DNA of 64,000 nt from Betaproteobacteria bacterium. GTDB taxonomy: Bacteria; Pseudomonadota; Gammaproteobacteria; Burkholderiales; CAIKXV01. The position numbers and the translations under genes are program-made. Each line of letters opens with the position of its first letter. The stretch's first letter is position 1. The notes below the pieces were generated by a model that was not told the DNA's origin, ran no database searches, and was given only the letters and a program-made list of their open reading frames with translations. Positions 18,120-33,559 of this stretch are shown in pieces. The stretch covers positions 21 through 64,020 of the forward strand of contig JAJTHE010000031.1 in the NCBI GenBank assembly GCA_021298815.1, given 5' to 3'.

Positions 18120-18132
18120 GGTGCGCCGCCGG

Positions 18133-19284: not shown

Positions 19285-19306
19285 GAAGCCCGCCGAAGCG
19301 GGCTTC
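19285..19306 (-). terminator. intrinsic terminator after the symporter large subunit
   Basis: Minus strand reads GAAGCCCGC-TTCG-GCGGGCTTC, a 9-bp stem with a UUCG tetraloop, followed by TTCCGTT. It lies 35 nt downstream of the stop at 19341. Confidence 0.6.
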
Positions 19307-19340
19307 CCCTGTTGCCGGTGAAGCGGGATTGCGCCAGCGA

Positions 19341-21413
19341 TCAGGCGCCCTGCTTCGCCTCGTTGCCGAGCACCGGGTAGCGCACGTTCTCGACCATCTC
19401 CTGCACCGAGCGGTCGGGGGCCGCGGTCAGCAGAGAGACGACGATCAGCGTCAGCATGCCGGCCGGCATGCCGAAGATGCCTGCCGAGATCGGCGCGATG
19501 CCGAACCACAGGTCGATCTTGTAGCCGGTCATCGCGGTGAAGAACGGATACGTGGCGACCTGGTAGTACATGCAGACCGCCAGGCCGGTCAGCATGCCCG
19601 CGATCGCACCCGCCTTGTTCGCCCGCTTCCAGAACACCCCGAGAACGAGGGCCGGGAAGAAGGCAGAGGCTGCCAGCGAGAACGCCGCCCCGACCAGGAA
19701 CAGGATGTCCCCGGGGTTGAGCGAGGTCACGTAGGCCGCGATCACCGCCACCACCAGCAGCAGGCCCTTGGCCATCATCAGGCGACGCTGGGTGGACGCG
19801 TTCGGATCGATCATCTTGTAGTAGACGTCGTGCGAGAGCGCGTTGGCGATGGTCAGCAGCAGGCCGTCCGCTGTGGACAGCGCAGCCGCGAGGCCACCGG
19901 CCGCGACCAGCCCGGATATCACGTACGGCAGGCCGACGATCTCCGGGGTCGCCAGCACGATCACGTCCTGCCCGAGGGTGATCTCGGCCAGTTGCACGAT
20001 GCCGTCCATGTTGACGTCGACCACCGACAGCAGCCTCGGATCGACCTTGCTCCAGGCCGCCACCCAGGCTGGCAGGTCGGCGAAACTGTCACCGACCAGC
20101 AGCGTGTAGATGTCGAACTTGGCCAGCACCGCCAGCGCCGGCGCGGTGAAGTAGAGCAGGAAGATGAAGAACAGCGACCAGAACACCGAGCGGCGCGCCT
20201 CCTTCACCGATGGCGTCGTGTAGTAGCGCATCAGGATGTGCGGAAGCGCCGCGGTACCGACCATCAGGCAGAACACCAGCGCGAGGAAGTTCAGCCGCGC
20301 CGTGTCGCGGGCCTCTTCGGTGGCGCCCGGGAACGGCGTTGCATGCGGCCTGGGCGGTGCGGCTCGTGCATTGTTCGCATTGCGCGCGGCGGTCCACGCG
20401 GTGCGCGCAGCGGCAGCGCTGGCCGGGTAACCCGCGAGCGCCTTCTCTGCGGCCGCCACCGCGTCCGCCGGGGCGTTCGACGCCTTCAGCGCCTCGACCT
20501 TCTTGACCAGATCGGCCCGGCCGGTCTCCCATGACCCCGGAAGGCCCTTGATCTGCGCGTCGAGCGCAGCCGCACGCTCGCGGAAGATGGCGCGAACCTC
20601 GAGTTCCTTCGGATCGGCGGTGAGCACCTTCTCGCGCTCGGTGACCTTCTCGAGCACCGTGCCGTAGACCACCTGCGGCACCGGGATGCCGGTGTGCTTG
20701 TAGGCCAGCATCATCACCGGGATCATGTAGGCGATGATCAGGATGATGTACTGCGCGACCTGGGTCCAGGTCACCGCCCGCATGCCGCCCAGGAACGAGC
20801 AGACCAGGATGCCGAGCAGGCCGACGAACACGCCGACGCCGAACTCGAGGCCGGTGAAGCGCGCGGTGATCAGGCCGACGCCGTAGATCTGCGCCACGAC
20901 ATAGACGAACGACGCGAGGATCGCGGCGAACACACCGATCGTGCGCACGATGTTGCCGCCGTAGCGCTCGCCGAGGAAGTCGGGGATGGTGAACTGGCCG
21001 AACTTGCGCAGGTAGGGCGCGAGGAACAGCGCGACCAGCACGTAGCCGCCGGTCCAGCCCATGATGAACGCCAGGCCGTCGTAGCCCTGGAGGTAGAGGC
21101 CACCGGCCATGCCGATGAACGACGCGGCCGACATCCAGTCGGAGCCCGTGGCCATGCCGTTGAACACGGCCGGCACCCGGCGTCCCGCGACGTAGTACTC
21201 GGACAGGTCGGTGGTACGGCTCATGATGCCGATGCCGGCATACAGGCCGATGGTCGCCAGCAGGAACAGGTAGCCGAGCGTCCTGTTGGGCACGCCCATG
21301 AACTCGAGCGCCGCCACGCAGAGCAGGAACACGAAGAAGCCACCCGTGTAGAAGGTGTAGTACTTCTTCAGCTGCTGGGTGAATGTCTTCTGCGAGAAGG
21401 GAACGGCGCTCAT
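19341..21413 (-). CDS. sodium:solute symporter (SSS) family, large subunit of a two-component symporter (ActP / VC_2705-like)
   Basis: 690 aa. N-terminal half: FFVFLLCVAALEFMGVP...YYVAGRRVPAVFNGMATGSDWMSAASFIGMAGGLY. A roughly 100-aa hydrophilic Ala-rich insert splits the TM bundle. The start overlaps the small-subunit stop (ATGA, 21410-21413). Confidence 0.85.
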   Translation of the reverse strand: MSAVPFSQKTFTQQLKKYYTFYTGGFFVFLLCVAALEFMGVPNRTLGYLFLLATIGLYAGIGIMSRTTDLSEYYVAGRRVPAVFNGMATGSDWMSAASFIGMAGGLYLQGYDGLAFIMGWTGGYVLVALFLAPYLRKFGQFTIPDFLGERYGGNIVRTIGVFAAILASFVYVVAQIYGVGLITARFTGLEFGVGVFVGLLGILVCSFLGGMRAVTWTQVAQYIILIIAYMIPVMMLAYKHTGIPVPQVVYGTVLEKVTEREKVLTADPKELEVRAIFRERAAALDAQIKGLPGSWETGRADLVKKVEALKASNAPADAVAAAEKALAGYPASAAAARTAWTAARNANNARAAPPRPHATPFPGATEEARDTARLNFLALVFCLMVGTAALPHILMRYYTTPSVKEARRSVFWSLFFIFLLYFTAPALAVLAKFDIYTLLVGDSFADLPAWVAAWSKVDPRLLSVVDVNMDGIVQLAEITLGQDVIVLATPEIVGLPYVISGLVAAGGLAAALSTADGLLLTIANALSHDVYYKMIDPNASTQRRLMMAKGLLLVVAVIAAYVTSLNPGDILFLVGAAFSLAASAFFPALVLGVFWKRANKAGAIAGMLTGLAVCMYYQVATYPFFTAMTGYKIDLWFGIAPISAGIFGMPAGMLTLIVVSLLTAAPDRSVQEMVENVRYPVLGNEAKQGA

Positions 21414-21676
21414 TCGTCGTCTCCTTCCGACACGCCGTACTCCTTGTCGAGCCGGTTCATGTACCAGGCGTAGTAGCCGATGATCGCCACGTAGACGATC
21501 AGCGCGCCCTGCGCCCCCATGTAGAAGCCGAGCGGGAAGCCGAGGATGACGATCTCGTTGAGCTCGCGCGCGAAGAAGCTCGCGACGAAGGTGACGACGA
21601 ACCAGATGGCCAGCAGGATCGCGGTGATCCTGAGGTTCCGGCTCCAGTATTCCTCATGACGCTGCGTGAGCTGCAT
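21410..21676 (-). CDS. DUF4212-type putative solute:sodium symporter small subunit
   Basis: 88 aa: MQLTQRHEEYWSRNLRITAILLAIWFVVTFVASFFARELNEIVILGFPLGFYMGAQGALIVYVAIIGYYAWYMNRLDKEYGV. The RBS AGGAGGGGG lies 5 nt upstream of the ATG at 21676. Confidence 0.8.
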   Translation of the reverse strand: MQLTQRHEEYWSRNLRITAILLAIWFVVTFVASFFARELNEIVILGFPLGFYMGAQGALIVYVAIIGYYAWYMNRLDKEYGVSEGDDE

Positions 21677-21817
21677 GTTTTCCCCCTCCTGTGAACAACG
21701 AGATGCCTGTCGCGGCTGCGCGTGCGCCCGCACCCTGCGGACGATCGTGCGTTGCCTTGCCCCTGTGGTACGCCGCGCGTCGCCCGCACGGCATGGCCCG
21801 CAAATTCCTCTGAGGCC

Positions 21818-21838
21818 GAAAAGCGCCCGGTGGGCGCT
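21818..21838 (-). terminator. intrinsic terminator stranded inside the 358-nt spacer
   Basis: Minus strand reads AGCGCCC-ACC-GGGCGCT followed by TTTTCGG. It lies about 200 nt downstream of the stop at 22035 and about 140 nt upstream of the symporter small-subunit start. Confidence 0.55.
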
Positions 21839-22034
21839 GCCGGCACCTGCTTCGTCCGTCTGACGCGGCGTTGCAGGGCTTGAATGTGAAACCAAGGTTA
21901 GCAGGGTACCCAGTCCAGGCAGGCGTGCCAAGCCCCTGATCGAATCTCGCCGGCCCGGAGAATGGCAAGTGACCCACCTGACACGCCATCCGCCGGCACG
22001 GACAGGTCCGGAGCGGCTGCCGCGGGGCGTCGAC

Positions 22035-22352
22035 TCAGCCCGGCAGCGTCTCGCTGGCGATGCGCAGCACCAGGTAGACCTTGCCGATGTAGAGCAGCAC
22101 CCAGGCCATGACCACCAGCGCGAAGGACGCCAGGCCGATATGCGCATCCACGACGAAGCGCGGCGTGAGCAGGCGCGTGGCCCTGCGCACGGGCGAGGTC
22201 ATCACCGCCAGTACCCGGTAGAACACGTTGGTGTCCCGGGACGGACCGGCCAGCAGGGCGAGCACGCCCTGGCCGAGCAATGCGAGCCCGGCGATCTCGG
22301 CGACCGCCTTCAGCACGACCACGACGTTGTACCAGAGGGCCAGCGAGCTCAC
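22035..22352 (-). CDS. small hypothetical membrane protein (about 3 TM segments)
   Basis: 105-aa ORF with hydrophobic segments (LALWYNVVVVLKAVAEIAGLALLGQGVLALLAG; IGLASFALVVMAWVLLYIG). It lies 31 nt downstream of the Bug gene. No family was recognised. Confidence 0.5.
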   Translation of the reverse strand: MSSLALWYNVVVVLKAVAEIAGLALLGQGVLALLAGPSRDTNVFYRVLAVMTSPVRRATRLLTPRFVVDAHIGLASFALVVMAWVLLYIGKVYLVLRIASETLPG

Positions 22353-22383
22353 CCGCCGTCCCTCCCGGCGCCGCGGCCGCTCA

Positions 22384-23400
22384 TCAGCTGCCGTCGACCT
22401 TGATGCCGACCTGCTTCACGATCTTCGTCCAGCGGGCGATCTCGCTGCGCACCAGCTGGTCGTGCTGCTCGGGGGTGGACCCCACCGGCTCCGCACCCTG
22501 GCTGGACAGGCGGTCGCGCACGGCCGGGTCCTGGACTGCCTTGACCAGCGCGCCGTTGATCGTCTTGACGACGGCAGCGGGCACGTTGGCCGGTGCCAGC
22601 ATGCCGAACCCGGACGAGACCTCGTAGCCGGGGAATCCCTGCTCGGCGATCGTCGGCACGTCGGGCAGCGCCCGCGAACGCTTGGCGCTGGTCACGCCCA
22701 GCGGCCTCAGCTTGCCCGCCTGCACGTGCGACACGAACACCGGCATCGAGGCGGCCATCAGGATCACGTAGCCGCCGACGACATCGGTGATCGCCTGGCC
22801 GGAACCCTTGTACGGCACGTGCACGTAGCTGCCGCCGTTCATCGAACTCAGCAGTTCCATCGCGAGGTGGCCGACGGTGCCTGCGCCCGACGAGGCGTAG
22901 TTGAGCTTGCCCGGGTTCTTGCGCGCCAGCGCGGCCAGTTCGCGCACCGACTTCACCGGCAGCGACGGATGCGCGACGATCATCGTCGGCACGTCGGCAG
23001 CCACGCCCAGCATCGTGAAATCCTTGATGCTGTCGTAGGGCAGCTTCGGCAGGATCGCCGCGTTGAAGACATGGGCCGACGACACGAAACCGACGACATA
23101 GCCATCCGCCGGCGAACGCGCGAGCACCTCGGTGCCGATCGTGCTGCCGGCCCCGCCACGGTTCTCGATGACGAAGGTCTGCCCGAGCAGTTCCTGCATC
23201 CGGGTGGCCACGCCGCGCGCGATGATGTCGGTGTTCCCGCCCGGCGGGAACGGCACGATCATGCGGATCGGCTTGGCCGGGTAGGCCTGCGCGAACGCGA
23301 CGTCGGGCATCGACGACAGCCCGGCCAGCGACAGCACGGACATCGACAGCACGGCGGCCGGCGCGAGACGCGCATGTGCCGTTGGCATGGGGTGTTTCAT
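22384..23400 (-). CDS. Bug-family (TctC-like) substrate-binding protein
   Basis: The RBS GGAGGA precedes the ATG. A signal peptide is followed by YPAKPIRMIVPFPPGGNTDIIARGVATRM...IENRGGAGSTIG...VPYKGSGQAITDVVGGYV. Confidence 0.9.
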   Translation of the reverse strand: MKHPMPTAHARLAPAAVLSMSVLSLAGLSSMPDVAFAQAYPAKPIRMIVPFPPGGNTDIIARGVATRMQELLGQTFVIENRGGAGSTIGTEVLARSPADGYVVGFVSSAHVFNAAILPKLPYDSIKDFTMLGVAADVPTMIVAHPSLPVKSVRELAALARKNPGKLNYASSGAGTVGHLAMELLSSMNGGSYVHVPYKGSGQAITDVVGGYVILMAASMPVFVSHVQAGKLRPLGVTSAKRSRALPDVPTIAEQGFPGYEVSSGFGMLAPANVPAAVVKTINGALVKAVQDPAVRDRLSSQGAEPVGSTPEQHDQLVRSEIARWTKIVKQVGIKVDGS

Positions 23401-23496
23401 TCTGCTGATCCTCCAGTGGCGCCCGCATCCGACGGCCCGGGCGGGCTGGTCGGTGCGCAGGGAAAACGCGGTGGAATCCCGGTTCCATCCGCAGCA

Positions 23497-23512
23497 CGGC
23501 CGTCTCCGGCCG
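23497..23512 (-). terminator. weak hairpin between paralog C and the Bug gene
   Basis: Minus strand reads CGGCCG-GAGA-CGGCCG, a 6-bp stem with a GNRA-type loop and no U-tract. Confidence 0.2.
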
Positions 23513-23525
23513 CCCGCAGTTTACG

Positions 23526-24554
23526 TCACTTCACGGCAACTGCCGGGCCGAAGTTCGCAGGGCGTGCCATGCTCCGGGAAAGCACGACCTGGCCCTGCAG
23601 CAGGGCAGGATTGTCGCTGCCGACCCGCACCGTGCCGGAAGCCTCCCCGCCCCGGGTCGCCGCGAGGATCTCGTGGCGCACCTGCTTGCCGCCGATCTCG
23701 GCGTTGAAGATCACGTTCAGGTCGTTGCCGACCATCTCGGCGAACGCGAGTGTCGCCGGCCGGCCGCCGAGGGTGACGCTGCCGGTGAGCAGCTGGAAGC
23801 GCTGCTCGAGGTCGAGCTCGACCGGGAGCACCTGGCCGCCCGCGACCGGCATCTTTCCCTGCCAGCGACCGCCGCCCTGCCCGGGGACGATCCACATGTA
23901 GACGTAGGCGAGGCCGGGCGTGCCGACCTTCTTCTCGGGCACGTCGAGGGTGATGCGATCGTCGGGCAGCCAGTCCTCGAAATGGTAGTCGTGGGTGACC
24001 ACGCGCGACCCGGGCCGCAGTTCGGCCAGCAGCTTGGGGCGCGCCATCATGTTGACCTCGGGCAGCAGGTACATGGTGACGACGTCGGCCTTGGTGAGGT
24101 CGGTCTTGAAGATGTCCCGCTGGAAGAACTGCACGCGGTCGGCGACGCCTGCCTGCTTCGCGGTGGCGTTCGCATGCCTGACCAGCTCGGGGTCCAGGTC
24201 GACGCCGAAGCCGCGCACGCCCATGCGCTGCGCCGCGGTGATGACGATGCGGCCATCGCCCGAGCCGAGGTCGACCAGGAAATCCTTCGCCCCGACGCGG
24301 CCCATGCGCAGCATCTCGTCGACCACCTTCTGCGGCGTCGGCACGTACGGCGACGAGTCGAAGCGGATCACCACGGCGTCGCGCGCCGCCGCCTGCGCGA
24401 ACGCCGACGGCGACGGCGACAGCGCGGCGCCGGCGGCGCCGGCAGCCAGGGCCTGCAGGGCCCTGCGGCGGCCGGCGGCGGCGGCGTGAAGGGCAGGATG
24501 CGCAGCGACGGGTGCCGCGGCGCGCAGCGGGGAAACGGGTGGGCGGATGTTCAT
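23526..24554 (-). CDS. exported class I SAM-methyltransferase-like protein, paralog C (subfamily I)
   Basis: The ATG at 24554 forms an ATGA overlap with the paralog D stop. Signal: AGRRRALQALAAGAAGAALSPSPSAFA|QA. SPYVPTPQKVVDEMLRMGRVGAKDFLVDLGSGDGRIVITAAQ; GFGVDLD; DVVTMYLLP; LRPGSRVVTHDY; VPGQGGGRWQG. Confidence 0.85.
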   Translation of the reverse strand: MNIRPPVSPLRAAAPVAAHPALHAAAAGRRRALQALAAGAAGAALSPSPSAFAQAAARDAVVIRFDSSPYVPTPQKVVDEMLRMGRVGAKDFLVDLGSGDGRIVITAAQRMGVRGFGVDLDPELVRHANATAKQAGVADRVQFFQRDIFKTDLTKADVVTMYLLPEVNMMARPKLLAELRPGSRVVTHDYHFEDWLPDDRITLDVPEKKVGTPGLAYVYMWIVPGQGGGRWQGKMPVAGGQVLPVELDLEQRFQLLTGSVTLGGRPATLAFAEMVGNDLNVIFNAEIGGKQVRHEILAATRGGEASGTVRVGSDNPALLQGQVVLSRSMARPANFGPAVAVK

Positions 24555-25507
24555 TTCGCGAGTCCGGTCGGTCGGAAATAGGCCGTGGTGCGGGCACGTT
24601 CCGCCCGCCACGGATAGGTAACCGTCTTGTAGTCGGGATCGTCGCGATGGACGACCTTGACGCTGCCTTCGATGCGATCGCCGCGCACCTTGCCGGAGAA
24701 CTCCTGCCGGGTCAGTCCGACCTTGTCGAGCGTGATCTCCATCGCGAACGAGAGGTCTTCGCCGCGCAGCTTCATGTCGGTGAACACGCCGCGGCGGTCG
24801 CCGACGCGGCAGATGCCCTCGGCCAGCTGGAAGAGCTGCTCGAGCAGTGCCTCGTAGCCCTGCGGGCTCCCGGTCACCGGCAGGTCCCAGTTCCAGTAGC
24901 CCTCGACCTTCGCGGGCACGACCCACACCAGCACGCGGCCGCCCTCGGTGTCGGTGAAGTCGGGCGTCCAGCCCGGCATCTCGAAGCCGTTGGACACCAG
25001 GCGCGTGCCGGGCCGCGCCTCGGCCAGCAGCTTCGGGCGCAGCAGCCGCATCAGTTCCGGGAACAGCCACATCGTGATCACCGTCGCCTCGCTGATGTCG
25101 GCGTCGAACACGTTGCGGTGGTAGAAACGGGCGCGATCGGCGAGCCCCTGCGCACGGGCGTTCTCGGTCGCCTCGGCCACCAGCGCCGGGTTGATGTCGA
25201 CCCCCCAGCCACGAACCTTCGGATTGGCCTTCAGGGCGCTGAGCACGATGCGCCCGTCCCCCGAACCGAGGTCGACGACCACGTCGTCGTCGCGCAGTTG
25301 CGCCATCTTCACCATGCGGTCGACGGTGAACTGCGGGCTGCCGACGAACAGCGAGAACCTTTCCTGCGCTCCGGCCACGCCGGGCAGCAAGGTCGTGCCG
25401 GCGAGCAGTGACAGGCAGGCGCGGCGGCGTGCGAGCGCCAGGGAGCCGGCCTGCGGCGCAACGTGCAGGCCGGGACTCGTGCTGGACTGGTTTCGTGCGG
25501 GACGCAT
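24551..25507 (-). CDS. exported class I SAM-methyltransferase-like protein, paralog D (subfamily II)
   Basis: Signal: LARRRACLSLLAGTTLLPGVAGA|QERFSLFVGSPQ. VVVDLGSGDGRIVLSALKANPKVRGWGVDIN; ATVITMWLFPELMRLLRPKLLAEARPGTR; VPAKVEGYWNW. C-terminus: PWRAERARTTAYFRPTGLAK. Confidence 0.85.
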   Translation of the reverse strand: MRPARNQSSTSPGLHVAPQAGSLALARRRACLSLLAGTTLLPGVAGAQERFSLFVGSPQFTVDRMVKMAQLRDDDVVVDLGSGDGRIVLSALKANPKVRGWGVDINPALVAEATENARAQGLADRARFYHRNVFDADISEATVITMWLFPELMRLLRPKLLAEARPGTRLVSNGFEMPGWTPDFTDTEGGRVLVWVVPAKVEGYWNWDLPVTGSPQGYEALLEQLFQLAEGICRVGDRRGVFTDMKLRGEDLSFAMEITLDKVGLTRQEFSGKVRGDRIEGSVKVVHRDDPDYKTVTYPWRAERARTTAYFRPTGLAK

Positions 25508-25510
25508 CGG

Positions 25511-26434
25511 CTACTTCAGGTCGATGCCGGTCGGACGGAACCAGCCGCTCTTGGCGACACGGCGCGCGATCCACGGCAGCTCGACCGTCTTGGCCTCGGC
25601 CACGGAAACCTTCACCGTGCCCTTGATCGTTTCGCCGTTCACCTTGCCGGAGAACTCGTGCTTGGTGCGGCCGACCCCGGTCAGCGTCATGTCGAACACG
25701 AAGGACAGGTCTTCGCCGCGCAGCTTCACGTCGGTCAGGCTCTCGCGCCGGTTGCCCACGCGCGCGAAGCCCTCGGCATTCTGGAACGCCTGGTTCATGA
25801 TCACGTCGTAGGTCTGGGTGGTGCCGCTCAGCGGCAGGTCCCAGGTCCAGAAGCCCGCCACGCGCGCGGGCACGATCCAGAGCATGATCGGGCTGGAGCC
25901 TTCGCGGTCGATCTGGTCGGGCTGCCAGAGCCCGAGGATGTTGTCGGTGCCGATCAGCTGGCCGTTGACGATCACGCGCGTGCCGGGGCGCGCCTCGGCG
26001 AGGATCTTCGGCTGCAGCAGCCGGGTGAGGTTGGCGAACAGCCACATGTTGATCACGTTGACCTCGCGCAGGTCGACGTCGAAGGCGTTGCGCTGGCTGA
26101 ACTGCGCACGATCGGACACGCCCTGCTTGGCCGCCTCTTCCGTCGCGGTCTTGACCAGCCATTCCTGCAGGTCGACGCCCCAGCCGCGCACCTTCGGGTT
26201 GCTCTTGACCGCGGCGATGATGATCTGCCCGTTGCCGGAGCCGAGGTCGGCGACGACCTCGCCGTCCTTCAGCGCGGCGAGCTTGATCATCCGGTTCACC
26301 GCGTCCTGGCTGCTCGGCCCGAACGGCGTGGCGTACTCCTGTGCCCGTGCCGACCGGATGGATCCGAAGGCCCCGGCGACCAGCCCGGCGGCGGCGGCCC
26401 CGGCGATGAACGTGCGACGCGACTGCTGTTCCAT
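25511..26434 (-). CDS. exported class I SAM-methyltransferase-like protein, paralog E (subfamily II; variant G-loop)
   Basis: The RBS GGGAGAA precedes ATG 26434. Classical Tat motif: MEQQSRRTFIAGAAAAGLVAGAFGSIRSARA|QE. The G-loop is DLGSGNGQIIIAAVKSNPKVRGWGVDL. VPARVAGFWTW. C-terminus: PWIARRVAKSGWFRPTGIDLK. Confidence 0.85.
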   Translation of the reverse strand: MEQQSRRTFIAGAAAAGLVAGAFGSIRSARAQEYATPFGPSSQDAVNRMIKLAALKDGEVVADLGSGNGQIIIAAVKSNPKVRGWGVDLQEWLVKTATEEAAKQGVSDRAQFSQRNAFDVDLREVNVINMWLFANLTRLLQPKILAEARPGTRVIVNGQLIGTDNILGLWQPDQIDREGSSPIMLWIVPARVAGFWTWDLPLSGTTQTYDVIMNQAFQNAEGFARVGNRRESLTDVKLRGEDLSFVFDMTLTGVGRTKHEFSGKVNGETIKGTVKVSVAEAKTVELPWIARRVAKSGWFRPTGIDLK

Positions 26435-26537
26435 GTGTTCTCCCTGTCCCTTCATGCGGATGTCCCGTGCCCGGCCACCCCTGGCCGGGCCTGCACTGCC
26501 TGCCTGCGCGCCGGCCCCCCGGCATGCAGGCGCGCGC

Positions 26538-27443
26538 CTATTTCGTCTCGACCCCCGTCGGACGGAAGTAAGCGGTCGTCGTGGTGCGCCGTGCAAGCCA
26601 TGGCAGTTCCACGTTCTTGCCATCGGGCGTGGACACCTTCACCGTGCCCTTGATCTGGTCGCCGTTGACCTTGCCGGCGAAATCGTGGCGGGTGAGGCCG
26701 ACCCCGTCGAGCGTCATCTCGACCGAGAACGAGAAATCCTCGCCGCGCAGCCTGACATTCTGCAGGATGCCTCGCCGGTTGCCCGCGCGGGTCACGCCTT
26801 CGGCCATCTGGAAGCGCTGCTCGAGGATCGCATCATGGGTGAACGGGATGCCGTTGATCGTGCTCTGCCACGACCAGTAGCCCTCGACCTTCGCCGGGAC
26901 GATCCACAAACCGACCGAGGAGCCGGCTTCCTTGTCCCATTCGTCGGCCTGCCACGAACCCATGTCGAACAGGTGGGTGAGCACGCGCGTGCCGGGCCTC
27001 GCCTCGGCGAGGATCTTCGGGCGCAGCAGGCGCATCAGTTCGGGGAACAGCCACATGTTGATCACGGTGACGTCGCGGATATCCGCGTCGAACACGTTGC
27101 GGTGGTAGAACTGCACGCGGTCGGCCACGCCCTGCTTCTTCGCCGCTTCGTTCGACTGCCGCACGAGGCTCTCGTTGATGTCCACGCCCCAGCCGCGCAC
27201 CTTCGGGTTGTCGCGCGCGGCGGTCAGCACGATGCGCCCGTCGCCCGACCCGAGGTCTACGACGACGTCGTTGTCCTGGATGCGCGCGAGCTTCACCAGC
27301 CGCTCCACCGTCGGCTGCGCGCTGGGCACGAACAGCGAGAAGCGCTCCTGCGCCAGGGCACCGGTCGCGCCGGCCAGCAGCATGGATGCGGCCACCAGCC
27401 CCTGCGCCGCACGAACCATCGAAAAACGTCCGTTCATGTTCAT
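26538..27443 (-). CDS. exported class I SAM-methyltransferase-like protein, paralog F (subfamily II)
   Basis: Sec-type signal: MNMNGRFSMVRAAQGLVAASMLLAGATGALA|QERFSLFVPSAQ. VVVDLGSGDGRIVLTAARDNPKVRGWGVDIN; MWLFPELMRLLRPKILAEARPGTR; VPAKVEGYWSW. C-terminus: PWLARRTTTTAYFRPTGVETK. Confidence 0.85.
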   Translation of the reverse strand: MNMNGRFSMVRAAQGLVAASMLLAGATGALAQERFSLFVPSAQPTVERLVKLARIQDNDVVVDLGSGDGRIVLTAARDNPKVRGWGVDINESLVRQSNEAAKKQGVADRVQFYHRNVFDADIRDVTVINMWLFPELMRLLRPKILAEARPGTRVLTHLFDMGSWQADEWDKEAGSSVGLWIVPAKVEGYWSWQSTINGIPFTHDAILEQRFQMAEGVTRAGNRRGILQNVRLRGEDFSFSVEMTLDGVGLTRHDFAGKVNGDQIKGTVKVSTPDGKNVELPWLARRTTTTAYFRPTGVETK

Positions 27444-27456
27444 CCTCGGATAGCAC

Positions 27457-28368
27457 TCACTTGATGTTGACGCCGGTGGGGCGGAACCACGATGCCGCGG
27501 TGCCGCGCCGCGCCACCCACGGCAGCTGCTGCGGCTTGCCCTCGGCCGGCGTGATCGTGACCGTACCGCGGATCTCCTCGCCCTCGACCTTGCCCGTGAA
27601 CGAATGGCGCGCGCGGCCGAAACCCTCGACCGTCACTTCCAGTTCGAACGAGATGTCCGCGCCGCGCAGGCGTGCCTCGGTCAGGTTCTCGCGCCGGTTG
27701 CCCACCCGCGCATGCCCTTCGATCTTCTGGAACTGCTGGCTGATCAGCAGGTCGTAGGAGCGCGCATCGCCGCCCAGCGGCAACTGCCACGACCACGCGC
27801 CTTCTACGCGCGCCGGCACGAACCAGACGAGGATCGGGCTCTGGGTGCCGTCGCCGCGATCGACGCGGTCCGGTTCCCAGTTGCCCATCATGTTCGCGTT
27901 GTCGATCAGTGCGCCGTTGATGATCACCCGGGTGCCCGGCCGCGCCTCGGCGAGGATCTTCGGCCGCAGCAGCTGGGTCAGGCTGCGGAACAGCCACATG
28001 TTGATCACCGTCACCTCGCGCAGGTCGACGTCGAACGCGTTGCGGTGGAAGAACTGCGCGCGGTCGGCCAGGCCTTCCTTCTTCGCCGTCTCGTTCGCCG
28101 CGGCCACCAGGCTGGCCTCGATGTCCACGCCCCAGCCGCGCACCTTCGGGTTGCTGCGCACCGCGGCGAGCACGATCCGCCCGTCGAACGAACCGAGATC
28201 GACGACGACATCGCCGTCGCGCAGGTTCGCCACCTTCACCATGCGGTCGATGATGAACGGGCTGCTGCCCGCCGGAAACGACCATTGCTCCTGGGCAAGG
28301 GCGACAGCCGGCAGCAGGGCACCGGCGATGAGAGCGACGCAGGCGCGCCGCAGGATGTTCAGGCGCAT
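27457..28368 (-). CDS. exported class I SAM-methyltransferase-like protein, paralog G (subfamily II; degenerate G-loop)
   Basis: The RBS GGAGG lies 5 nt upstream of ATG 28368. Signal: MRLNILRRACVALIAGALLPAVALA|QE. The G-loop is VVVDLGSFDGRIVLAAVRSNPKVRGWGVDIE (Gly to Phe). VPARVEGAWSW. C-terminus: PWVARRGTAASWFRPTGVNIK. Confidence 0.85.
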   Translation of the reverse strand: MRLNILRRACVALIAGALLPAVALAQEQWSFPAGSSPFIIDRMVKVANLRDGDVVVDLGSFDGRIVLAAVRSNPKVRGWGVDIEASLVAAANETAKKEGLADRAQFFHRNAFDVDLREVTVINMWLFRSLTQLLRPKILAEARPGTRVIINGALIDNANMMGNWEPDRVDRGDGTQSPILVWFVPARVEGAWSWQLPLGGDARSYDLLISQQFQKIEGHARVGNRRENLTEARLRGADISFELEVTVEGFGRARHSFTGKVEGEEIRGTVTITPAEGKPQQLPWVARRGTAASWFRPTGVNIK

Positions 28369-28381
28369 TCGGCCTCCATGG

Positions 28382-29323
28382 TCACTTGACGGCCAGCCCC
28401 GTGGGCTGGAAATAGGTGGTGCTGGTACTGCGCGTTGCACGCCACGGCAGGTCCACGGCCTTGCCACCGTCCGCAGTCACGCGCACCGTGCCCTCGATCG
28501 TGCCGCCCTTCACGGTGCCGCGGAACTCGTGCAGCACCGACACGCCGGGATCGAGCGTCATGCGCAGCCCGAACGAGACCTGGTCGCCGCGCAGCTTGAG
28601 GTCGGTGAAGTTGCCGCGCCGGTTGCCCACGCGCACGATGCCTTCACCCACCTGGAAGCGCTGCTCGACGATCGAGGCGTAGTTCATCGTCTGCCCGCCC
28701 ATCGGCAGCGACCAGTTCCAGAAGCCCTCGATCTTCGCCGGGACGATCCACAGGCTGATCCGGGCGTCGGCACCGGCACCGCCGAACTTGTCCGGGGCGA
28801 AGAAGGTGAGCTGCTCGTCGGGTTCCCAGGTGCCGAAGCCGAAGTCGTGGCTGACGATGCGCGTGCCCGGCTGCAGCTCGTTCAGCAGCTTGGGGCGCAG
28901 CAGCCGCATCAGTTCCGGGAACAGGTACATGTTCACCACCGTCGCCTTGCGCAGGTCGACGTCGAACACGTTCTGGTGCATGAAGCTCACCCGGTCGCCG
29001 ACGCCGGACTTGCGCGCGATCGAAGAGGCCAGCTCGACCAGTTCCGGGTTGATGTCGACGCCGAAGCCGCGCGCCCCGTGCAGCCGGGCCGCAGTGGTGA
29101 CGATCCGCCCGTCGCCCGACCCGAGGTCGACCACCACGTCGGACTTGCCGACGTTGGCCATCTTCGCCATCGCCTCGGCCACGCTCTGCGGGCTGGGCAC
29201 GTACAGCGAGAACCGCTCCTGTGCCTGCCCCGGCTTCGCCCCGGCGAGCAGGCCGAGCAGCAGTGCACCGCAGGCTGCCAGCGCCGTGCGCCGGCGGTGC
29301 GGGGCGTGGCGTCGTTCGGTCAT
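28382..29323 (-). CDS. exported class I SAM-methyltransferase-like protein, paralog H (subfamily II, first gene of the H-to-C run)
   Basis: Signal: MTERRHAPHRRRTALAACGALLLGLLAGAKPGQA|QERFSLYVPSPQ. VVVDLGSGDGRIVTTAARLHGARGFGVDIN; MYLFPELMRLLRPKLLNELQPGTRIVSHDF; VPAKIEGFWNW. C-terminus: PWRATRSTSTTYFQPTGLAVK. Confidence 0.85.
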   Translation of the reverse strand: MTERRHAPHRRRTALAACGALLLGLLAGAKPGQAQERFSLYVPSPQSVAEAMAKMANVGKSDVVVDLGSGDGRIVTTAARLHGARGFGVDINPELVELASSIARKSGVGDRVSFMHQNVFDVDLRKATVVNMYLFPELMRLLRPKLLNELQPGTRIVSHDFGFGTWEPDEQLTFFAPDKFGGAGADARISLWIVPAKIEGFWNWSLPMGGQTMNYASIVEQRFQVGEGIVRVGNRRGNFTDLKLRGDQVSFGLRMTLDPGVSVLHEFRGTVKGGTIEGTVRVTADGGKAVDLPWRATRSTSTTYFQPTGLAVK

Positions 29324-29561
29324 TGTGTTTCCGCTGGCAGGCTGTGCGTTGCCGTTCCCCTGTTCGTCTGGCATTTCCGATCGTGTTCCCGTGGCTTTCG
29401 TCGTCGTGGCGTATGGTGGAAATCGTCGGTCCCGTGCGTGCGGCACCGAAACGCGCGGAGCGCAGTTTGCCTGCAACCGCGCAGAAAGTCAGTCCGTCGA
29501 ATGCATTCGTCCCGTGCCGGCAGCGGACCTGACATCCGGACGACGCCCGGCCGGGCATCCG

Positions 29562-29581
29562 GGGCGGTTCCCGCGCCGCCC
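29562..29581 (-). terminator. GC-rich hairpin in the 270-nt spacer separating the two paralog runs
   Basis: Minus strand reads GGGCGG-CGCGGGAA-CCGCCC, about 12 nt after the paralog I stop. There is no U-tract, so this is only a candidate. Confidence 0.2.
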
Positions 29582-29592
29582 GGCAAGCCGGC

Positions 29593-30522
29593 TCACCGCA
29601 CGGCGGTCCGGCGCGCCTGCCAGCGGGTCTCGACGCCGCGGTCGTTGCGCGCGATGCCGCCCATCGTCTCGCCCTCGACCCGGCCCTCGAACTGCCAGGG
29701 CGCGGCTGGCGGCCCGCCGGCGCGCACCGGCAGGGCGACAGTAAAACGCACCCGCTCCCCGGCCAGCCGGGCATCGCGCACCTCGAGGACCTGGCGTCCG
29801 AGGGACAGTTCCGCATCCAGCACCTGGTGCACCTGCTGCAGCCGCAGCTCGGCCGGCACCGACGGCAGGCTGTCGGCCGGTGCTCCCGACCAGCTCACCG
29901 CCCAGCGGCCATGCACCTCCGCCGGCACGACGTACAGGAAGACCGTGCTGTTGCCGCCGCGCCCATCGTTCTTCTCGGGCGCGAAGAAGGTTTCAGACGC
30001 GTCAGCCTGCCAGCCCTCGAACGGAAAATCGTGGCTCACGATCCGGCTGCCCGGCCGCAGCTGGCGCAGCAGCACCGGGCGCAGGCCCTGCACGATTGGC
30101 GGCAGCAGGTACAGGGTGACCACGGTCGCCTTGCGCACGTCCGTGGCGAACACGTCGCCGCGCTCGAAGCGGACGCGGTCGCCGACGCCGGAGGCAGCCG
30201 CATTGCGATTGGAAAGCTCGACCAGCATGGCATCGAGGTCGACGCCGCCGCCGCTGGCACCGAACTTGAGCGCGGCGGCGATCGGGATGCGCCCGTCGCC
30301 GGACCCGAGGTCGATCACATGGTCGCCCTTGCCCACCGAGGCGATCGACAGCATACGCATCACGGTGTTGCCGGGCGTGGTGATGAACGGCGAGAACGGC
30401 TTGTCGTCCTGCGCCCGGGCGACGCCGGCCACCAGGGCCGCCGGCATCGCCGCGGCTGCGGGCAGCAGTCCGATGGCGCGGACCAGGCGCCTGCGCGGGC
30501 AGCGGTGCGCCGCGGCGCCCAC
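29593..30522 (-). CDS. exported class I SAM-methyltransferase-like protein, paralog I (subfamily I)
   Basis: GTG start directly abuts the paralog J stop (0-nt spacer). Signal: CPRRRLVRAIGLLPAAAAMPAALVAGVARA|QD. SPFITTPGNTVMRMLSIASVGKGDHVIDLGSGDGRIPIAAAL; ATVVTLYLLP; LRPGSRIVSHDF; VPAEVHGRWAV. C-terminus: RWQARRTAVR. Confidence 0.8.
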   Translation of the reverse strand: MGAAAHRCPRRRLVRAIGLLPAAAAMPAALVAGVARAQDDKPFSPFITTPGNTVMRMLSIASVGKGDHVIDLGSGDGRIPIAAALKFGASGGGVDLDAMLVELSNRNAAASGVGDRVRFERGDVFATDVRKATVVTLYLLPPIVQGLRPVLLRQLRPGSRIVSHDFPFEGWQADASETFFAPEKNDGRGGNSTVFLYVVPAEVHGRWAVSWSGAPADSLPSVPAELRLQQVHQVLDAELSLGRQVLEVRDARLAGERVRFTVALPVRAGGPPAAPWQFEGRVEGETMGGIARNDRGVETRWQARRTAVR

Positions 30523-31464
30523 CTAGCGCGTCCCCGCTGACGGATCGATCGACGCGGCCCTGCCGCCGGTACGCACCGCTGACCAGGGTGAGGTCTGCTC
30601 GACCCTGTCGAACGTTCGTACCGTGCCTTCGATCGTTTCGCCGCGGGCGCGGCCGACGAAATCATGGCGAAGCGTGCGGCCATTCAGCTCGACGGCCGCG
30701 CTGATGCGCACGTCCTCGCCGCGCAGCGTGGTGAGCGATACGTTCATCGGCCGCCCGGCCGCGGTGCCGCGCACCTCGAGGTCCTGCAGCCGCTGGCGCA
30801 CCGCCACCTCCACCGGCTGGCCGCCGGGCAGCTTCCACTGCCAGTTGCCGGAGACGTTGGCCGGCACGATCCAGAGATAGACATAGCTGACCCCCGGGTT
30901 GCCGACCTGCTTCTCGGGCACCTGCATGGTGACCGATTCCTCGGCCTGCCAGTCGCCCATGTTGTAGTCGTGCGACACGATGCGCGAGCCGGGTCGCAGT
31001 TCGGCCAGCAGCTTGGGACGCAGCTTCAGGTTCAGCTCGGGCAGCAGGTAAAGCGTGATCACGCTCGCGGCGCTGACGTCGGTCTCGAACATGTTGCGCC
31101 TGATGAAGGCGACACGATCGGCGACGCCCTGCTTCTTCGCGTTCTCGTTGGCCTGGCGCAGCAGTTCGTCGTCGAGGTCGAAGCCGCGGCCGCCCTTGGC
31201 GCCGAACTTCGCCACCGCGGTGATCAGCTGGCGGCCGTCGCCCGACCCCAGGTCGATCACGAAGTCGGACGGACCGACCCGGGCCATCGTCATCATGCGG
31301 TTCACCACCACCTGTGGCGTGGGCACGTAGACCACGTCGCCGGCGCCGGTCTGGGCACGCAGCAGCGGCGCCAGGGCCGCGGCGCCGGTGCCTGCAGCGG
31401 CCACCGCGACGGCGGCGAGCAGCCGCCGCCGCGAAGGATCGGCTTTCGAATGACTGGAATCCAT
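30523..31464 (-). CDS. exported class I SAM-methyltransferase-like protein, paralog J (subfamily I)
   Basis: The RBS GGAGGT lies 6 nt upstream of ATG 31464. Tat-like signal: DPSRRRLLAAVAVAAAGTGAAALAPLLRA|QT. VVYVPTPQVVVNRMMTMARVGPSDFVIDLGSGDGRQLITAVA; ASVITLYLLP; LRPGSRIVSHDY; VPANVSGNWQW; PWSAVRT. Confidence 0.85.
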   Translation of the reverse strand: MDSSHSKADPSRRRLLAAVAVAAAGTGAAALAPLLRAQTGAGDVVYVPTPQVVVNRMMTMARVGPSDFVIDLGSGDGRQLITAVAKFGAKGGRGFDLDDELLRQANENAKKQGVADRVAFIRRNMFETDVSAASVITLYLLPELNLKLRPKLLAELRPGSRIVSHDYNMGDWQAEESVTMQVPEKQVGNPGVSYVYLWIVPANVSGNWQWKLPGGQPVEVAVRQRLQDLEVRGTAAGRPMNVSLTTLRGEDVRISAAVELNGRTLRHDFVGRARGETIEGTVRTFDRVEQTSPWSAVRTGGRAASIDPSAGTR

Positions 31465-31484
31465 GCAGGTACCTCCGGAAGCCT

Positions 31485-32408
31485 TCACTTGATCCTGGAT
31501 GCGGCGAACGCCGTCGTCGCGGCGATCGTCGACTCGATGCTGCCTTCCATCCGGTCGCCGTCGACCCGGGCGCGCACGATCGCACGACCGGCACGCCCGC
31601 CCGGCGCCTCGACCGGCAGCGCGAAGCGCAGGTCGAGACCGCGGAGCGAGGTCGCGTCGAGGCGGCGCGCAGCGCGCCCGGCCGCGGCGAGCGTACCCTC
31701 GAAGTCGTTCAGGCCCTGCTGCAGCGACAGCTCGACGCGATCGAAGGCCGGGTTCCCCGGCGCGCTGACCGTCCAGCGTCCGTCGACCCGGGCCGGCACC
31801 AGGAACAGGTACACGGTCGCGTCGGGCACGCCGGTGATCGCCGCCTTCTCCGGCACGTCGAAGGTGACGTGGCTTGCCGCGCGCCAGTCCTCGAAGTGGT
31901 AGTCGTGGGCGACGATGCGCGTGCCGGGCCGCAGGTCGGTGAGGAAGCGCGGGCGCAGCTTCATCATCATCCACGGCAGCAGGTACAGCGTGAGCACCGT
32001 CGCCTCGCGAACGTCGGTGTCGAAGATGTTCCGTTCCTCGAAGCGCACGAGGTGGCCCACCCCTTCCCGGGCCGCCGTGTCGTTGGCCAGGCGCACGAGG
32101 TCGCCGTCGATGTCGACACCATAGCCGCGCGCGCCGTGCCGCTTCGCGGCGGAGATCACCAGCCGGCCGTCGCCGCAGCCGAGATCCATCACGAGGTCCT
32201 GCGCGCGGATGCCGCCGGCACCGATCATCTGGTCGACCACCGGCCAGGGCGTGGGCACGTACGGCCCGCCATTGCGGTCGAGCGGCTTCTTCCCTGCTGG
32301 CGCCTGCGCCAGCAGGGACATGGCGCCGGCTGCAAGCCCGGCACCGCCTGCCCCGGTGGCAAGCGCGAGCAGTGCGCGCCGGCGGGTGCGGATGCGGGCG
32401 GCGTCCAT
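31485..32408 (-). CDS. exported class I SAM-methyltransferase-like protein, paralog K (subfamily I)
   Basis: The start overlaps the paralog L stop (TGATG). Tat-like signal: IRTRRRALLALATGAGGAGLAAGAMSLLA|QA. GPYVPTPWPVVDQMIGAGGIRAQDLVMDLGCGDGRLVISAAK; ATVLTLYLLP; LRPGTRIVAHDY; VPARVDGRWTV. Confidence 0.85.
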   Translation of the reverse strand: MDAARIRTRRRALLALATGAGGAGLAAGAMSLLAQAPAGKKPLDRNGGPYVPTPWPVVDQMIGAGGIRAQDLVMDLGCGDGRLVISAAKRHGARGYGVDIDGDLVRLANDTAAREGVGHLVRFEERNIFDTDVREATVLTLYLLPWMMMKLRPRFLTDLRPGTRIVAHDYHFEDWRAASHVTFDVPEKAAITGVPDATVYLFLVPARVDGRWTVSAPGNPAFDRVELSLQQGLNDFEGTLAAAGRAARRLDATSLRGLDLRFALPVEAPGGRAGRAIVRARVDGDRMEGSIESTIAATTAFAASRIK

Positions 32409-33346: not shown

Positions 33347-33559
33347 CCGGGTTCGATGAGGTTCGGGGACGGGAAGAAGGGCTTATCGACCTGGTCAGTT
33401 TAACATGCAGGCTGTGCCGGCCAGCGCATGGACGGCATCGATGCTTCCCCGCGCCACCGGGCACGCTCGCCCGCGGCACACGCCTGCACGGGCCGGCATC
33501 GCGGCGGCGGTCGCCGCGCCCTGAAGCCGGCGACCGCAGGCGACGATCACGGGCAGCGA

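What the first reader, a model, noticed from the sequence alone, without database searches (positions are those of the whole stretch)
24551..29323. Five consecutive genes form a distinct subfamily with an invariant extreme C-terminal tail
Paralogs D, E, F, G and H are adjacent and form one coupled run. Their mature N-termini read Q-E-(R/Q/Y).(F/S)...; D, F and H have QERFSL(F/Y)V. They share the block NPKVRGWGVD(I/L) (H reads HGARGFGVDIN), MWLF(P/A/R)(E/N/S)L(M/T)(R/Q)LL(R/Q)PK(I/L)LAEARPGTR, and an identical style of C-terminus: YFRPTGLAK, WFRPTGIDLK, YFRPTGVETK, WFRPTGVNIK and YFQPTGLAVK. That gives the pattern (Y/W)F(R/Q)PTG(L/I/V)x(0-1)xK at the carboxyl end. The other eight paralogs lack this tail. 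A short motif fixed at the very C-terminus of exported proteins is typical of a sorting, docking or processing signal, for example recognition by a secretion or attachment machine, or an oligomerisation strand.
Basis: seen in the sequence. Interest (0 to 1): 0.6.

Follow-up and report, generated by a model that had tools for sequence, protein, structure and literature searches.

The report
Conserved tail of exported methyltransferase paralogs
Five neighbouring genes for exported methyltransferase-like proteins share a strongly conserved C-terminal motif (aromatic-Phe-x-Pro-Thr-Gly); it lacks every hallmark of a known sorting signal and is most likely an end-piece of the protein's beta-barrel domain, though its exact role is unproven.

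Summary
Genes D-H (24551-29323, minus strand) form a monophyletic clade within a 13-gene array. Each protein has a signal peptide (mostly twin-arginine type), an aKMT-like SAM methyltransferase domain and an unannotated calycin-like beta-barrel. All five end in [YW]F[RQ]PTG plus 3-4 residues.

The tail is under protein-level selection. Orthologous arrays in freshwater Burkholderiales MAGs keep it, and all 120 best database homologues (57-98% identity) carry a variant. Codons vary synonymously. G is invariant and F, T and P are about 90-96% conserved.

Two details need correcting. The terminal Lys is not conserved across the family, and some members carry 6-15 residues after the Gly. Paralogs C and J have cognate but degenerate tails.

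The sorting-signal reading finds no support. There is no hydrophobic segment or basic cluster, no LPXTG spacing and no conserved partner gene. In 293 kb the motif never appears outside this family.

AlphaFold models the tail as coil rather than a buried strand. Its confidence is moderate (about 70-74), with or without the methyltransferase domain. The motif sits a fixed five residues after the last barrel strand. Profile comparison aligns it to the junction that precedes a second barrel in related two-barrel proteins.

Best reading (about 0.4): a retained junction stub acting as a cap in cis. A docking motif acting in trans is not excluded.

The parts
24551..25507 (-). Gene D (318 aa): twin-Arg signal peptide, aKMT-like SAM-MTase domain, calycin-like barrel, tail YFRPTGLAK (tail codons 24554-24580)
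   Evidence: identical to database protein P0072
25511..26455 (-). Gene E (314 aa; the JGI gene call starts at 26434, 307 aa): signal peptide with Tat-consensus-like SRRTFIAG, MTase domain with variant motif I DLGSGNGQ, barrel, tail WFRPTGIDLK (25514-25543)
26538..27443 (-). Gene F (301 aa), the modelled member: signal peptide 27351-27443 (residues 1-31), MTase domain 26898-27350 (residues 32-182), barrel 26583-26897 (residues 183-287), tail 26541-26582 (residues 288-301, ..TTTAYFRPTGVETK)
   Evidence: AlphaFold model with pLDDT 91 and pTM 0.83; PDB matches; tail position
27457..28368 (-). Gene G (303 aa): as above, but motif I reads DLGSFDGR (second Gly replaced by Phe in 11 of 11 orthologues); tail WFRPTGVNIK (27460-27489)
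28382..29323 (-). Gene H (313 aa), basal member of the clade: MYLF instead of MWLF; tail YFQPTGLAVK (28385-28414)
23526..24554 (-). Gene C (342 aa), the next gene in the run: same architecture outside the D-H clade, with a degenerate cognate tail ..PANFGPAVAVK that is conserved among its orthologues
30523..31464 (-). Gene J (313 aa): same architecture; tail ..AASIDPSAGTR resembles the barrel N-cap/junction motif [VI]DP[ST]G
17148..36983 (-). Extent of the whole 13-gene paralog array: A, B at 17148-19158; C-L at 23526-33346; M at 36054-36983. Unrelated genes interrupt it (TctC, DUF4212, SSF symporter, Dps, DUF1643)

Best explanation
D-H encode exported two-domain proteins: a signal peptide ending AxA|QE, an aKMT-type class I SAM methyltransferase domain, and a small calycin-like eight-stranded beta-barrel.

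The tail is the segment directly behind the last barrel strand. It consists of a fixed five-residue Thr/Ser/Ala-rich spacer, an aromatic pair (Y/W-F), one variable residue, Pro-Thr-Gly, and a few loosely constrained residues.

I read it as a retained stub of the junction and N-cap that, in related proteins, leads into a second barrel. In these single-barrel proteins the stub would work in cis. The aromatic pair would pack onto the closed end of its own barrel, next to the methyltransferase-barrel interface. Pro-Thr-Gly would terminate the chain as a turn or edge-breaker.

On this reading it is a fold and interface element of the subfamily, not a targeting signal.

Shown: the architecture, the conservation, the fixed spacing, the coil state and the alignment to the junction. 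Inferred: that the aromatic pair packs on the barrel, and that the stub descends from a two-barrel ancestor.
For: Architecture:
- NCBIfam NF041081 (archaeal protein-lysine MTase) matches at E 1e-21 to 1e-38.
- PDB 5bxy matches at E 4e-60 and aKMT 5fa8 at E 2e-49, covering profile positions 32-182 only. Foldseek gives target-normalised TM 0.94 and 0.87.
- The C-terminal domain is modelled as a barrel (strands over residues 188-287) with only weak calycin, avidin and FABP-like matches.

Constraint on the tail:
- G297 100%, F293 96%, T296 90%, P295 89%, Y292 85% (aromatic). The core motif carries 3.65 bits per column against 3.23 for the mature protein.
- Synonymous codon variation is ample.
- The tail is present in all 120 best homologues and in the syntenic arrays of 14 MAG loci.

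Geometry:
- The spacer from the last-strand Arg to the aromatic pair is 5 residues in 103 of 106 distinct tails.
- The length after the Gly varies from 3 to 15. Position is therefore fixed relative to the barrel, not relative to the carboxyl end.

Structure prediction:
- The tail is coil with block pLDDT 74 in the full-length model and 70 in the isolated barrel. Its modelling does not depend on the MTase domain.
- The pLDDT bin counts fit higher confidence at the AYF end and lower at PTGVE.

Junction homology:
- The barrel occurs as 2-7 tandem repeats and as MTase plus two barrels.
- hhalign (probability 99.6%, E 8e-25) carries the alignment through the tail and places the tail Gly on the Gly of the next barrel's G-x-W.
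- Junctions read hydrophobic-[ND]-[LIP]-[VTS]-G-[TR]-W. P0200 has F-D-L-T-G-T-W, against F-E-P-T-G-T in the tail.
- The tail of paralog J (IDPS.G) scores 5.4 against an N-cap PSSM.
Against: - I could not inspect model coordinates, so contact of Y292/F293 with the barrel is inferred, not seen.
- AlphaFold gives only about 50-70 pLDDT to the highly conserved P-T-G. A cis cap does not by itself explain their conservation.
- A PSSM of independent N-caps ranks the tail window only about 8th of about 23 Gly-centred windows for the YFRPTG type. P, T, G and a following T match; Y, F and R do not. The junction homology is therefore suggestive, not statistically established.
- A Thr/Ser-rich spacer is also what a flexible presented peptide would look like.
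Confidence: 0.4

Rival explanations
1. The tail is a short linear docking motif that acts in trans. An exposed YF-x-PTG peptide on a flexible Thr/Ser spacer would be bound by another molecule: the barrel or MTase cleft of a neighbouring protomer or paralog (giving homo- or hetero-oligomers of D-H), or an unidentified periplasmic partner.
For: The tail is coil, and confidence falls towards the end. P, T and G are highly conserved yet not explained by the monomer model. The spacer is Thr/Ser/Ala-rich. Five paralogs are kept together as a set in all related MAGs, each with its own tail variant.
Against: The spacer length is essentially invariant (103 of 106), which is unusual for a flexible presented peptide. 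No conserved partner gene lies next to array or single-copy members. Tail confidence of about 70-74 is above typical disordered values. No multimer prediction could be run.
Confidence: 0.25
2. The tail would be a sorting, attachment or processing signal read by a dedicated machine, for example sortase- or exosortase-like cleavage, Lpp-like linkage of the C-terminal Lys to peptidoglycan, or a C-terminal processing protease.
For: The proteins are exported, with signal peptides ending AxA|QE. The motif is conserved, near-terminal and not buried. Most array members end in Lys.
Against: No hydrophobic helix or basic cluster follows the motif. P-T-G lacks the LPXTG spacing. The terminal residue is Q, R, E, H or D in many homologues, and 10 of 106 distinct tails carry 6-15 extra residues. 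No sortase, exosortase, L,D-transpeptidase or Prc-like gene is called within +/-10 kb. Neighbourhoods of single-copy members are unrelated to each other. In the data examined, the motif is confined to one domain family.
Confidence: 0.1
3. The tail is a pseudosubstrate or automethylation site. It would fold back into the lysine-methyltransferase cleft, where the terminal Lys is methylated or blocks the site.
For: The catalytic domain is aKMT-like. aKMT4 automethylates (PMC4639711). The tail leaves the barrel at the end that faces the MTase domain; this is an inference from the even-stranded up-and-down topology.
Against: Lys is not conserved at the end (about 70%; Q is common). Tail pLDDT is the same with and without the MTase domain. 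The conserved residues are Y, F, P, T and G, not the Lys.
Confidence: 0.07
4. The tail is a functionless evolutionary relic, or a DNA-level element (translational coupling or a ribosome-binding site for the next gene).
For: The genes are tightly packed, and the tail resembles a junction remnant.
Against: Amino acids are conserved while codons vary freely. Single-copy genes with unrelated downstream neighbours keep the tail. Conservation exceeds the protein average at 57-60% overall identity.
Confidence: 0.03

Closest known systems
aKMT / aKMT4 of Sulfolobus islandicus (PDB 5FA8, 5FAD, 5JWJ; NCBIfam NF041081)
   Same: Same compact class I (seven-beta-strand) SAM-MTase fold and motifs. Sequence profile E 2e-49, Foldseek target-normalised TM 0.87, NF041081 E down to 6e-38.
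   Different: aKMT is a cytoplasmic single-domain protein of about 160 aa. The proteins here add a signal peptide, a C-terminal barrel and the tail. Scores (77-130 bits) lie below the curated 200-bit cut-off. The D-G clade has MWLF where other members have LYLL after strand 4.
PDB 5BXY, Salinibacter ruber 'RNA methyltransferase' (structural genomics, SAH complex)
   Same: Closest solved homologue: E 4e-60, 41% identity, target-normalised TM 0.94, rmsd 1.2 A over 152 columns.
   Different: 158 aa, with no export signal, barrel or tail. Its function was never tested, and its name is probably generic.
Human FAM173B/ATPSCKMT and FAM173A (mitochondrial lysine methyltransferases)
   Same: aKMT homologues that carry an N-terminal hydrophobic targeting or anchor segment in front of the MTase domain (PMC5828452).
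   Different: Eukaryotic and membrane-anchored, with no barrel or tail. Homology to the window proteins was not tested directly here.
C-terminal sorting or attachment signals (LPXTG/sortase, PEP-CTERM/exosortase, GlyGly-CTERM/rhombosortase, Lpp C-terminal Lys)
   Same: A short conserved motif near the C-terminus of exported proteins.
   Different: Those signals consist of a motif plus a hydrophobic helix plus basic residues, or an obligatory terminal Lys. They are portable between protein families and co-occur with a processing enzyme. None of these features is found here.
Calycin-type small beta-barrels (lipocalin, FABP, avidin, nitrobindin)
   Same: Eight-stranded up-and-down barrel of about 105 residues, with G-x-W on the first strand and a conserved Arg on the last strand.
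   Different: Foldseek matches are weak (E >= 0.03, query-normalised TM <= 0.58). There is no Pfam family. The domain forms tandem repeats in other secreted proteins.

Membership tests
aKMT-type protein-lysine N-methyltransferase (NF041081) | Whole-protein score above the curated cut-off (200 bits) | tested here: not met
   77-130 bits, E 1e-21 to 6e-38. This shows clear homology but not equivalog membership.
aKMT-type protein-lysine N-methyltransferase (NF041081) | Class I SAM-binding motif I (D-x-G-x-G-x-G) and an acidic residue after strand 2 | tested here: met
   DLGSGDGR and GVD are invariant or nearly so. Exceptions: G has DLGSFDGR and E has DLGSGNGQ, each in all of its orthologues.
aKMT-type protein-lysine N-methyltransferase (NF041081) | Same three-dimensional fold as the solved aKMT | tested here: met
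   Foldseek 5fad E 8e-17 with TMt 0.87; 5bxy E 9e-20 with TMt 0.94.
aKMT-type protein-lysine N-methyltransferase (NF041081) | Lysine methylation activity | not testable with these tools
   Requires biochemistry.
Sortase (LPXTG) cell-wall sorting signal | L-P-x-T-G pentapeptide | tested here: not met
   The motif is [YW]-F-x-P-T-G, with no residue between P and T.
Sortase (LPXTG) cell-wall sorting signal | Hydrophobic helix and positively charged tail after the motif | tested here: not met
   Only 3-5 mostly polar residues follow the Gly in 96 of 106 distinct tails. The longer extensions are Pro-rich, not hydrophobic.
PEP-CTERM / exosortase and GlyGly-CTERM / rhombosortase signals | Signature motif plus transmembrane helix plus Arg-rich end, with the sorting enzyme encoded in the genome or nearby | tested here: not met
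   No such segment. No exosortase- or rhomboid-like gene among the Pfam-annotated genes within +/-10 kb. The rest of the genome could not be examined.
Lpp-type covalent peptidoglycan attachment | Obligatory C-terminal Lys | tested here: not met
   Terminal K at about 70% (weighted). Q, R, E, H, D or extensions occur in the other homologues.
OMP beta-signal / DegS-activating C-terminus | Aromatic residue at the extreme C-terminus (Y-x-F) | tested here: not met
   The aromatic pair lies 8-9 residues from the end, and the terminal residue is polar or charged.
Twin-arginine (Tat) signal peptide | S/T-R-R-x-F-L-K-like n-region, hydrophobic core, AxA cleavage site | tested here: inconclusive
   E has SRRTFIAG. 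D, G and H have RR followed by a hydrophobic core. F has a single Arg. All end AxA|QE. J gives only weak hits to Tat-signal models. No dedicated predictor was available.
Calycin-like barrel | Eight-stranded up-and-down barrel with G-x-W on strand A and a basic residue on the last strand | tested here: met
   DSSP strands of both models. G188 and W190 are invariant and R286 is nearly invariant. Foldseek similarity is only weak.

The most novel reading that the evidence does not exclude
These proteins could be active, Tat/Sec-exported protein methyltransferases working in the periplasm. The YF-x-PTG tail would then be their trans-acting recognition peptide. It could assemble the five paralogs into a complex, or hand them to an unknown partner or processing enzyme. 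That would amount to a periplasmic protein-methylation system with its own C-terminal address tag.
Probability: 0.12. Interest if true: 0.75.

Novelty: new variant of a known kind. Interest (0 to 1): 0.4.

Why it matters
On its own, the tail is a modest finding: a subfamily-specific and strongly selected C-terminal motif of unknown role.

It marks a large and undescribed protein family, with at least 6,787 homologues. The family combines three things:
- an export signal;
- an archaeal or FAM173-type lysine-methyltransferase domain;
- an unannotated calycin-like barrel that also exists as tandem repeats (2,530 representative clusters).

SAM-dependent methyltransferases acting outside the cytoplasm are essentially undescribed in bacteria. 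The phrase 'periplasmic methyltransferase' occurs in none of the 8 million papers searched.

Knowing whether the tail is a cap, a docking peptide or a processing site would tell how these proteins are organised in the periplasm. It would also give a simple handle (tail deletion or a tail peptide) for the first experiments on them.

Tried and rejected
- **DNA-level explanation** (ribosome-binding site or translational coupling inside the tail codons). Rejected: synonymous codons vary freely, and single-copy genes with other neighbours keep the tail.
- **Known sorting signals** (LPXTG, PEP-CTERM, GlyGly-CTERM, Lpp Lys, OMP beta-signal). Their defining features are not met.
- **Conserved partner gene.** None within +/-10 kb of the array or of two single-copy homologues.
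- **Pfam or NCBIfam family for the barrel.** None found; only sub-threshold TbpB_B_D and Lipocalin_4 hints in repeat proteins.
- **Foldseek on the isolated barrel.** Only weak calycin-like matches.
- **PSSM test of tail against N-cap.** Weak for YFRPTG-type tails (median rank about 8 of 23) and better for YFEPTGT-type tails and the tail of J. The relic idea therefore stays a hypothesis.
- **Metagenome scan for a 'missing link'** (YF.PTG.W.W followed by a second barrel). Uninformative.
- **Short barrel-plus-tail 'stand-alone' proteins** among the representatives. They look like metagenomic fragments or mis-called starts, so I did not use them as evidence.

Full report
**1. What is there**

The window is about 70% G+C. 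It comes from an 85.6-kb contig of a JGI metagenome (3300034010). The same contig is also held by NCBI as a Betaproteobacteria MAG. Its closest relatives are Burkholderiales MAGs, many whose isolate names suggest lake samples.

On the minus strand lie 13 paralogous genes of about 300-340 codons:
- A, B at 17148-19158;
- C-L at 23526-33346;
- M at 36054-36983.

The finding concerns D-H (24551-29323). I re-derived the proteins, and the five C-termini are exactly as reported: YFRPTGLAK, WFRPTGIDLK, YFRPTGVETK, WFRPTGVNIK and YFQPTGLAVK. The other shared blocks are also as described, except that H deviates in the MWLF...AEARPGTR block.

D-H are a clade. They are 47-63% identical to each other and 29-44% identical to the other eight paralogs, with H basal. 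The genes are tightly packed: gaps of 13, 13, 103 and 3 nt, then a 4-nt overlap into C.

**2. The proteins**

Each protein starts with a signal peptide that ends A-x-A|Q-E. D, E, G and H have twin arginines, and E reads SRRTFIAG, close to the Tat consensus. F has a Sec-like n-region.

Residues of about 32-182 form a compact class I SAM-methyltransferase domain:
- The best NCBIfam model is the archaeal protein-lysine N-methyltransferase NF041081 (E 1e-21 to 6e-38, below its curated cut-off).
- The closest solved structures by sequence are 5BXY (E 4e-60) and aKMT 5FA8/5FAD (E 2e-49).
- By fold, the target-normalised TM-scores are 0.94 and 0.87.

An AlphaFold model of F (pLDDT 91, pTM 0.83) shows a helix for the signal peptide and then the MTase fold. 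After it comes an all-beta domain (strands over residues 188-287), followed by 14 residues of coil.

The beta domain on its own is modelled with pLDDT 92.5. It resembles small calycin-type barrels only weakly: de novo barrels, avidins, FABPs and nitrobindin, with E >= 0.03. It has no Pfam family. It does carry the calycin-like sequence marks, with G-x-W on the first strand and Arg on the last.

A profile of this domain finds 2,530 representative clusters. Many of them are signal-peptide proteins made of 2-7 tandem copies without any MTase. Some are MTase plus two barrels.

**3. Is the tail more than chance or drift?**

Yes.

- All 120 best database homologues of F (57-98% identity) carry a recognisable variant. 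These range from YFRPTGVETK to YFEPTGTNVQ and YFAPTGTDVK.
- Fourteen related MAG loci carry the array or parts of it in the same gene order (M..L K J I H G F E D C..B A). Each orthologue keeps its own tail variant.
- Across 62 genes the codons for R, P, T and G vary synonymously while the residues stay the same.
- In a weighted alignment, G297 is invariant, F293 is 96%, T296 90%, P295 89% and Y292 85%. The six-residue core is better conserved than the mature protein on average: 3.65 against 3.23 bits.
- In the window, a looser form of the motif matches only at the five C-termini, plus one unrelated internal site.
- In 293 kb of window plus related loci the motif occurs 65 times, always at a family C-terminus.

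**4. Corrections to the description**

The terminal Lys is not a family feature. It reaches about 70% (weighted), and Q is common.

The motif need not be at the extreme end. 96 of 106 distinct tails have 3-5 residues after the Gly, and 10 have 6-15, mostly Pro-rich.

The upstream spacing, by contrast, is almost invariant. Five residues (Thr/Ser/Ala-rich) separate the last-strand Arg from the aromatic pair in 103 of 106 tails.

Two of the 'tail-less' paralogs have cognates:
- C orthologues end in A[NY][FL]G.A...
- J orthologues end in ..[IL][DE]P[SQ]...

**5. Testing the sorting-signal interpretation**

Every defining feature I could test is absent.
- No hydrophobic helix or basic cluster follows the motif.
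- P-T-G lacks the LPXTG spacing.
- There is no obligatory terminal Lys (Lpp type) and no terminal aromatic residue (OMP type).
- No sortase, exosortase, rhomboid, L,D-transpeptidase or tail-specific protease is among the Pfam-annotated genes within +/-10 kb of the array.
- Two single-copy tail-bearing genes sit in unrelated neighbourhoods: a branched-chain ABC transporter, and TctC genes.
- Sorting signals are portable between protein families, but this motif was found only behind this one barrel.

The rest of the genome could not be searched, so portability is not fully excluded.

**6. What the models say**

That is not met, because the tail is coil.

Its block pLDDT is 74 in the full-length model and 70 in the isolated barrel. 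The last one or two residues fall to about 45. The tail's modelling therefore does not depend on the MTase domain. This argues against a confident fold-back into the catalytic cleft.

The pLDDT bin counts fit the A-Y-F end being placed with fair confidence and P-T-G-V-E less so.

**7. Where the tail may come from**

In tandem-barrel proteins and in MTase-plus-two-barrel proteins, the last strand (W-x-A-x-R) is followed by a short linker. Then comes an N-cap of the next barrel: hydrophobic-[D/N]-[P/L/I]-[T/S/V]-G-[T/R]-W-x-W. Examples are ADPTGTWTW, IDPSGLWKW and, in P0200, F-D-L-T-G-T-W.

The tail reads F-[E/D/R/A]-P-T-G-[T/V] and stops three or four residues later, where the Trp ladder would begin. 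Profile-profile alignment of the barrel-plus-tail profile against a barrel-plus-junction profile (probability 99.6%, E 8e-25) runs through the tail. It puts the tail Gly on the G of G-x-W. The tail of paralog J (SIDPSAG) fits an independent N-cap PSSM well, with a score of 5.4.

There are caveats.
- The same PSSM ranks YFRPTG-type tails only about 8th of 23 Gly-centred windows. P, T, G and T match, but Y, F and R do not.
- A truncated metagenome scan for a YF.PTG.W.W 'missing link' found nothing in a barrel context.

The relic origin is therefore a reasonable inference, not a demonstrated fact.

**8. Most likely mechanism and rivals**

I commit, at about 0.4, to a cis-acting structural role.
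- The stub of the inter-barrel junction has been retained.
- Its aromatic pair packs on the closed end of the barrel. This is the same end as the barrel's N-terminus and hence the MTase-barrel interface, as inferred from the even-stranded topology.
- P-T-G ends the chain as a turn or edge-breaker.

This reading accounts for the fixed upstream spacing, the tolerance of C-terminal extensions, the restriction to one domain family, the lack of a partner gene and the moderate confidence in the isolated domain. It leaves the very high conservation of P-T-G only weakly explained.

Rival readings:
- Trans docking or oligomerisation motif (about 0.25). It would explain P-T-G but not the fixed spacer.
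- Dedicated sorting, attachment or processing signal (about 0.1).
- Pseudosubstrate or automethylated Lys (about 0.07). aKMT4 does automethylate (PMC4639711), but the Lys is not conserved.
- Functionless relic or DNA element (about 0.03). This is contradicted.

**9. Comparison with what is known, and novelty**

The catalytic domain works like, and is clearly homologous to, aKMT, 5BXY and the FAM173 enzymes. The last also carry an N-terminal hydrophobic segment (PMC5828452).

The proteins are not equivalogs of aKMT. Scores are below the cut-off, and the proteins have two extra modules and a different predicted location.

The tail belongs to no known class of C-terminal signal.

I found no paper describing exported bacterial members. 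'Periplasmic methyltransferase' returns nothing in the held library, and a 2025 preprint calls human METTL9 the first secreted methyltransferase.

I rate the finding a new variant of a known kind, with interest 0.4. The tail itself is probably a structural detail, but it marks an unstudied, widespread family of exported methyltransferase-barrel proteins.

Noticed in passing
17148-19158, 23526-33346, 36054-36983 (minus strand): There are thirteen paralogous genes for signal-peptide-bearing aKMT-like SAM methyltransferases fused to a calycin-like barrel. Gene order is conserved in related freshwater Burkholderiales MAGs. Exported or periplasmic SAM-dependent methyltransferases appear undescribed, and the methyl-donor supply outside the cytoplasm is unexplained. 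Tat export of a cofactor-loaded enzyme is one possibility.
   Followed up: partly
27457-28368 (gene G) and 25511-26455 (gene E): G has DLGSFDGR in SAM-binding motif I, with the second Gly replaced by Phe, in 11 of 11 orthologues. E has DLGSGNGQ in 12 of 12. These may be pseudo-enzymes or have an altered cofactor site, conserved as such.
   Followed up: partly
C-terminal ~105 residues of every paralog, e.g. 26583-26897 in gene F: This beta-barrel domain has no Pfam family. It is found in 2,530 representative clusters. It also occurs as 2-7 tandem repeats in secreted proteins without an MTase, and as MTase plus two barrels in Armatimonadota- and Planctomycetes-labelled MAG proteins. It is a candidate new domain family.
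   Followed up: partly
23526-23570 (C), 30523-30570 (J), 32408-32455 (L): Other paralogs have their own C-terminal signatures, each conserved among its orthologues: C ..A[NY][FL]G.A.., J ..AASIDPSAGTR (like the barrel N-cap motif), L ..EPGPEGAWTYVRGS.
   Followed up: partly
D-G after MTase strand 4, e.g. residues 130-134 of F: The tail-bearing clade has MWLF(P) where other paralogs, 5BXY and aKMT-like proteins have LYLLP. H is intermediate (MYLF). The predicted substrate-side motif therefore changes together with the tail.
   Followed up: no
29324-29592: A 269-nt gap lies between genes I and H. It is the only sizeable intergenic space inside the C-L block and is a possible promoter region for the H-to-C run. 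It was not scanned.
   Followed up: no
e.g. the 999-codon reading frame at 23526-26525 (-) and 27845-30526 (+): Very long ORFs overlap the real genes on both strands and in other frames. They are the usual artefact of about 70% G+C, not genes.
   Followed up: no
PDB 5BXY (external): The closest solved homologue is deposited as an 'RNA methyltransferase', yet it is an aKMT-type domain (41% identical to F). The name is probably a generic structural-genomics label.
   Followed up: no
34035-34745, 35445-36044, 37199-38866 and the region to ~41220: Genes flanking the array include DUF1643, a Dps/ferritin-like protein, a long membrane protein with a spermidine-synthase-like C-terminal part, and a DsbD-like thiol:disulfide interchange protein. 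Only DUF1643 and ferritin have Pfam support. The other two are my reading of the translations. No link to the array was established.
   Followed up: no
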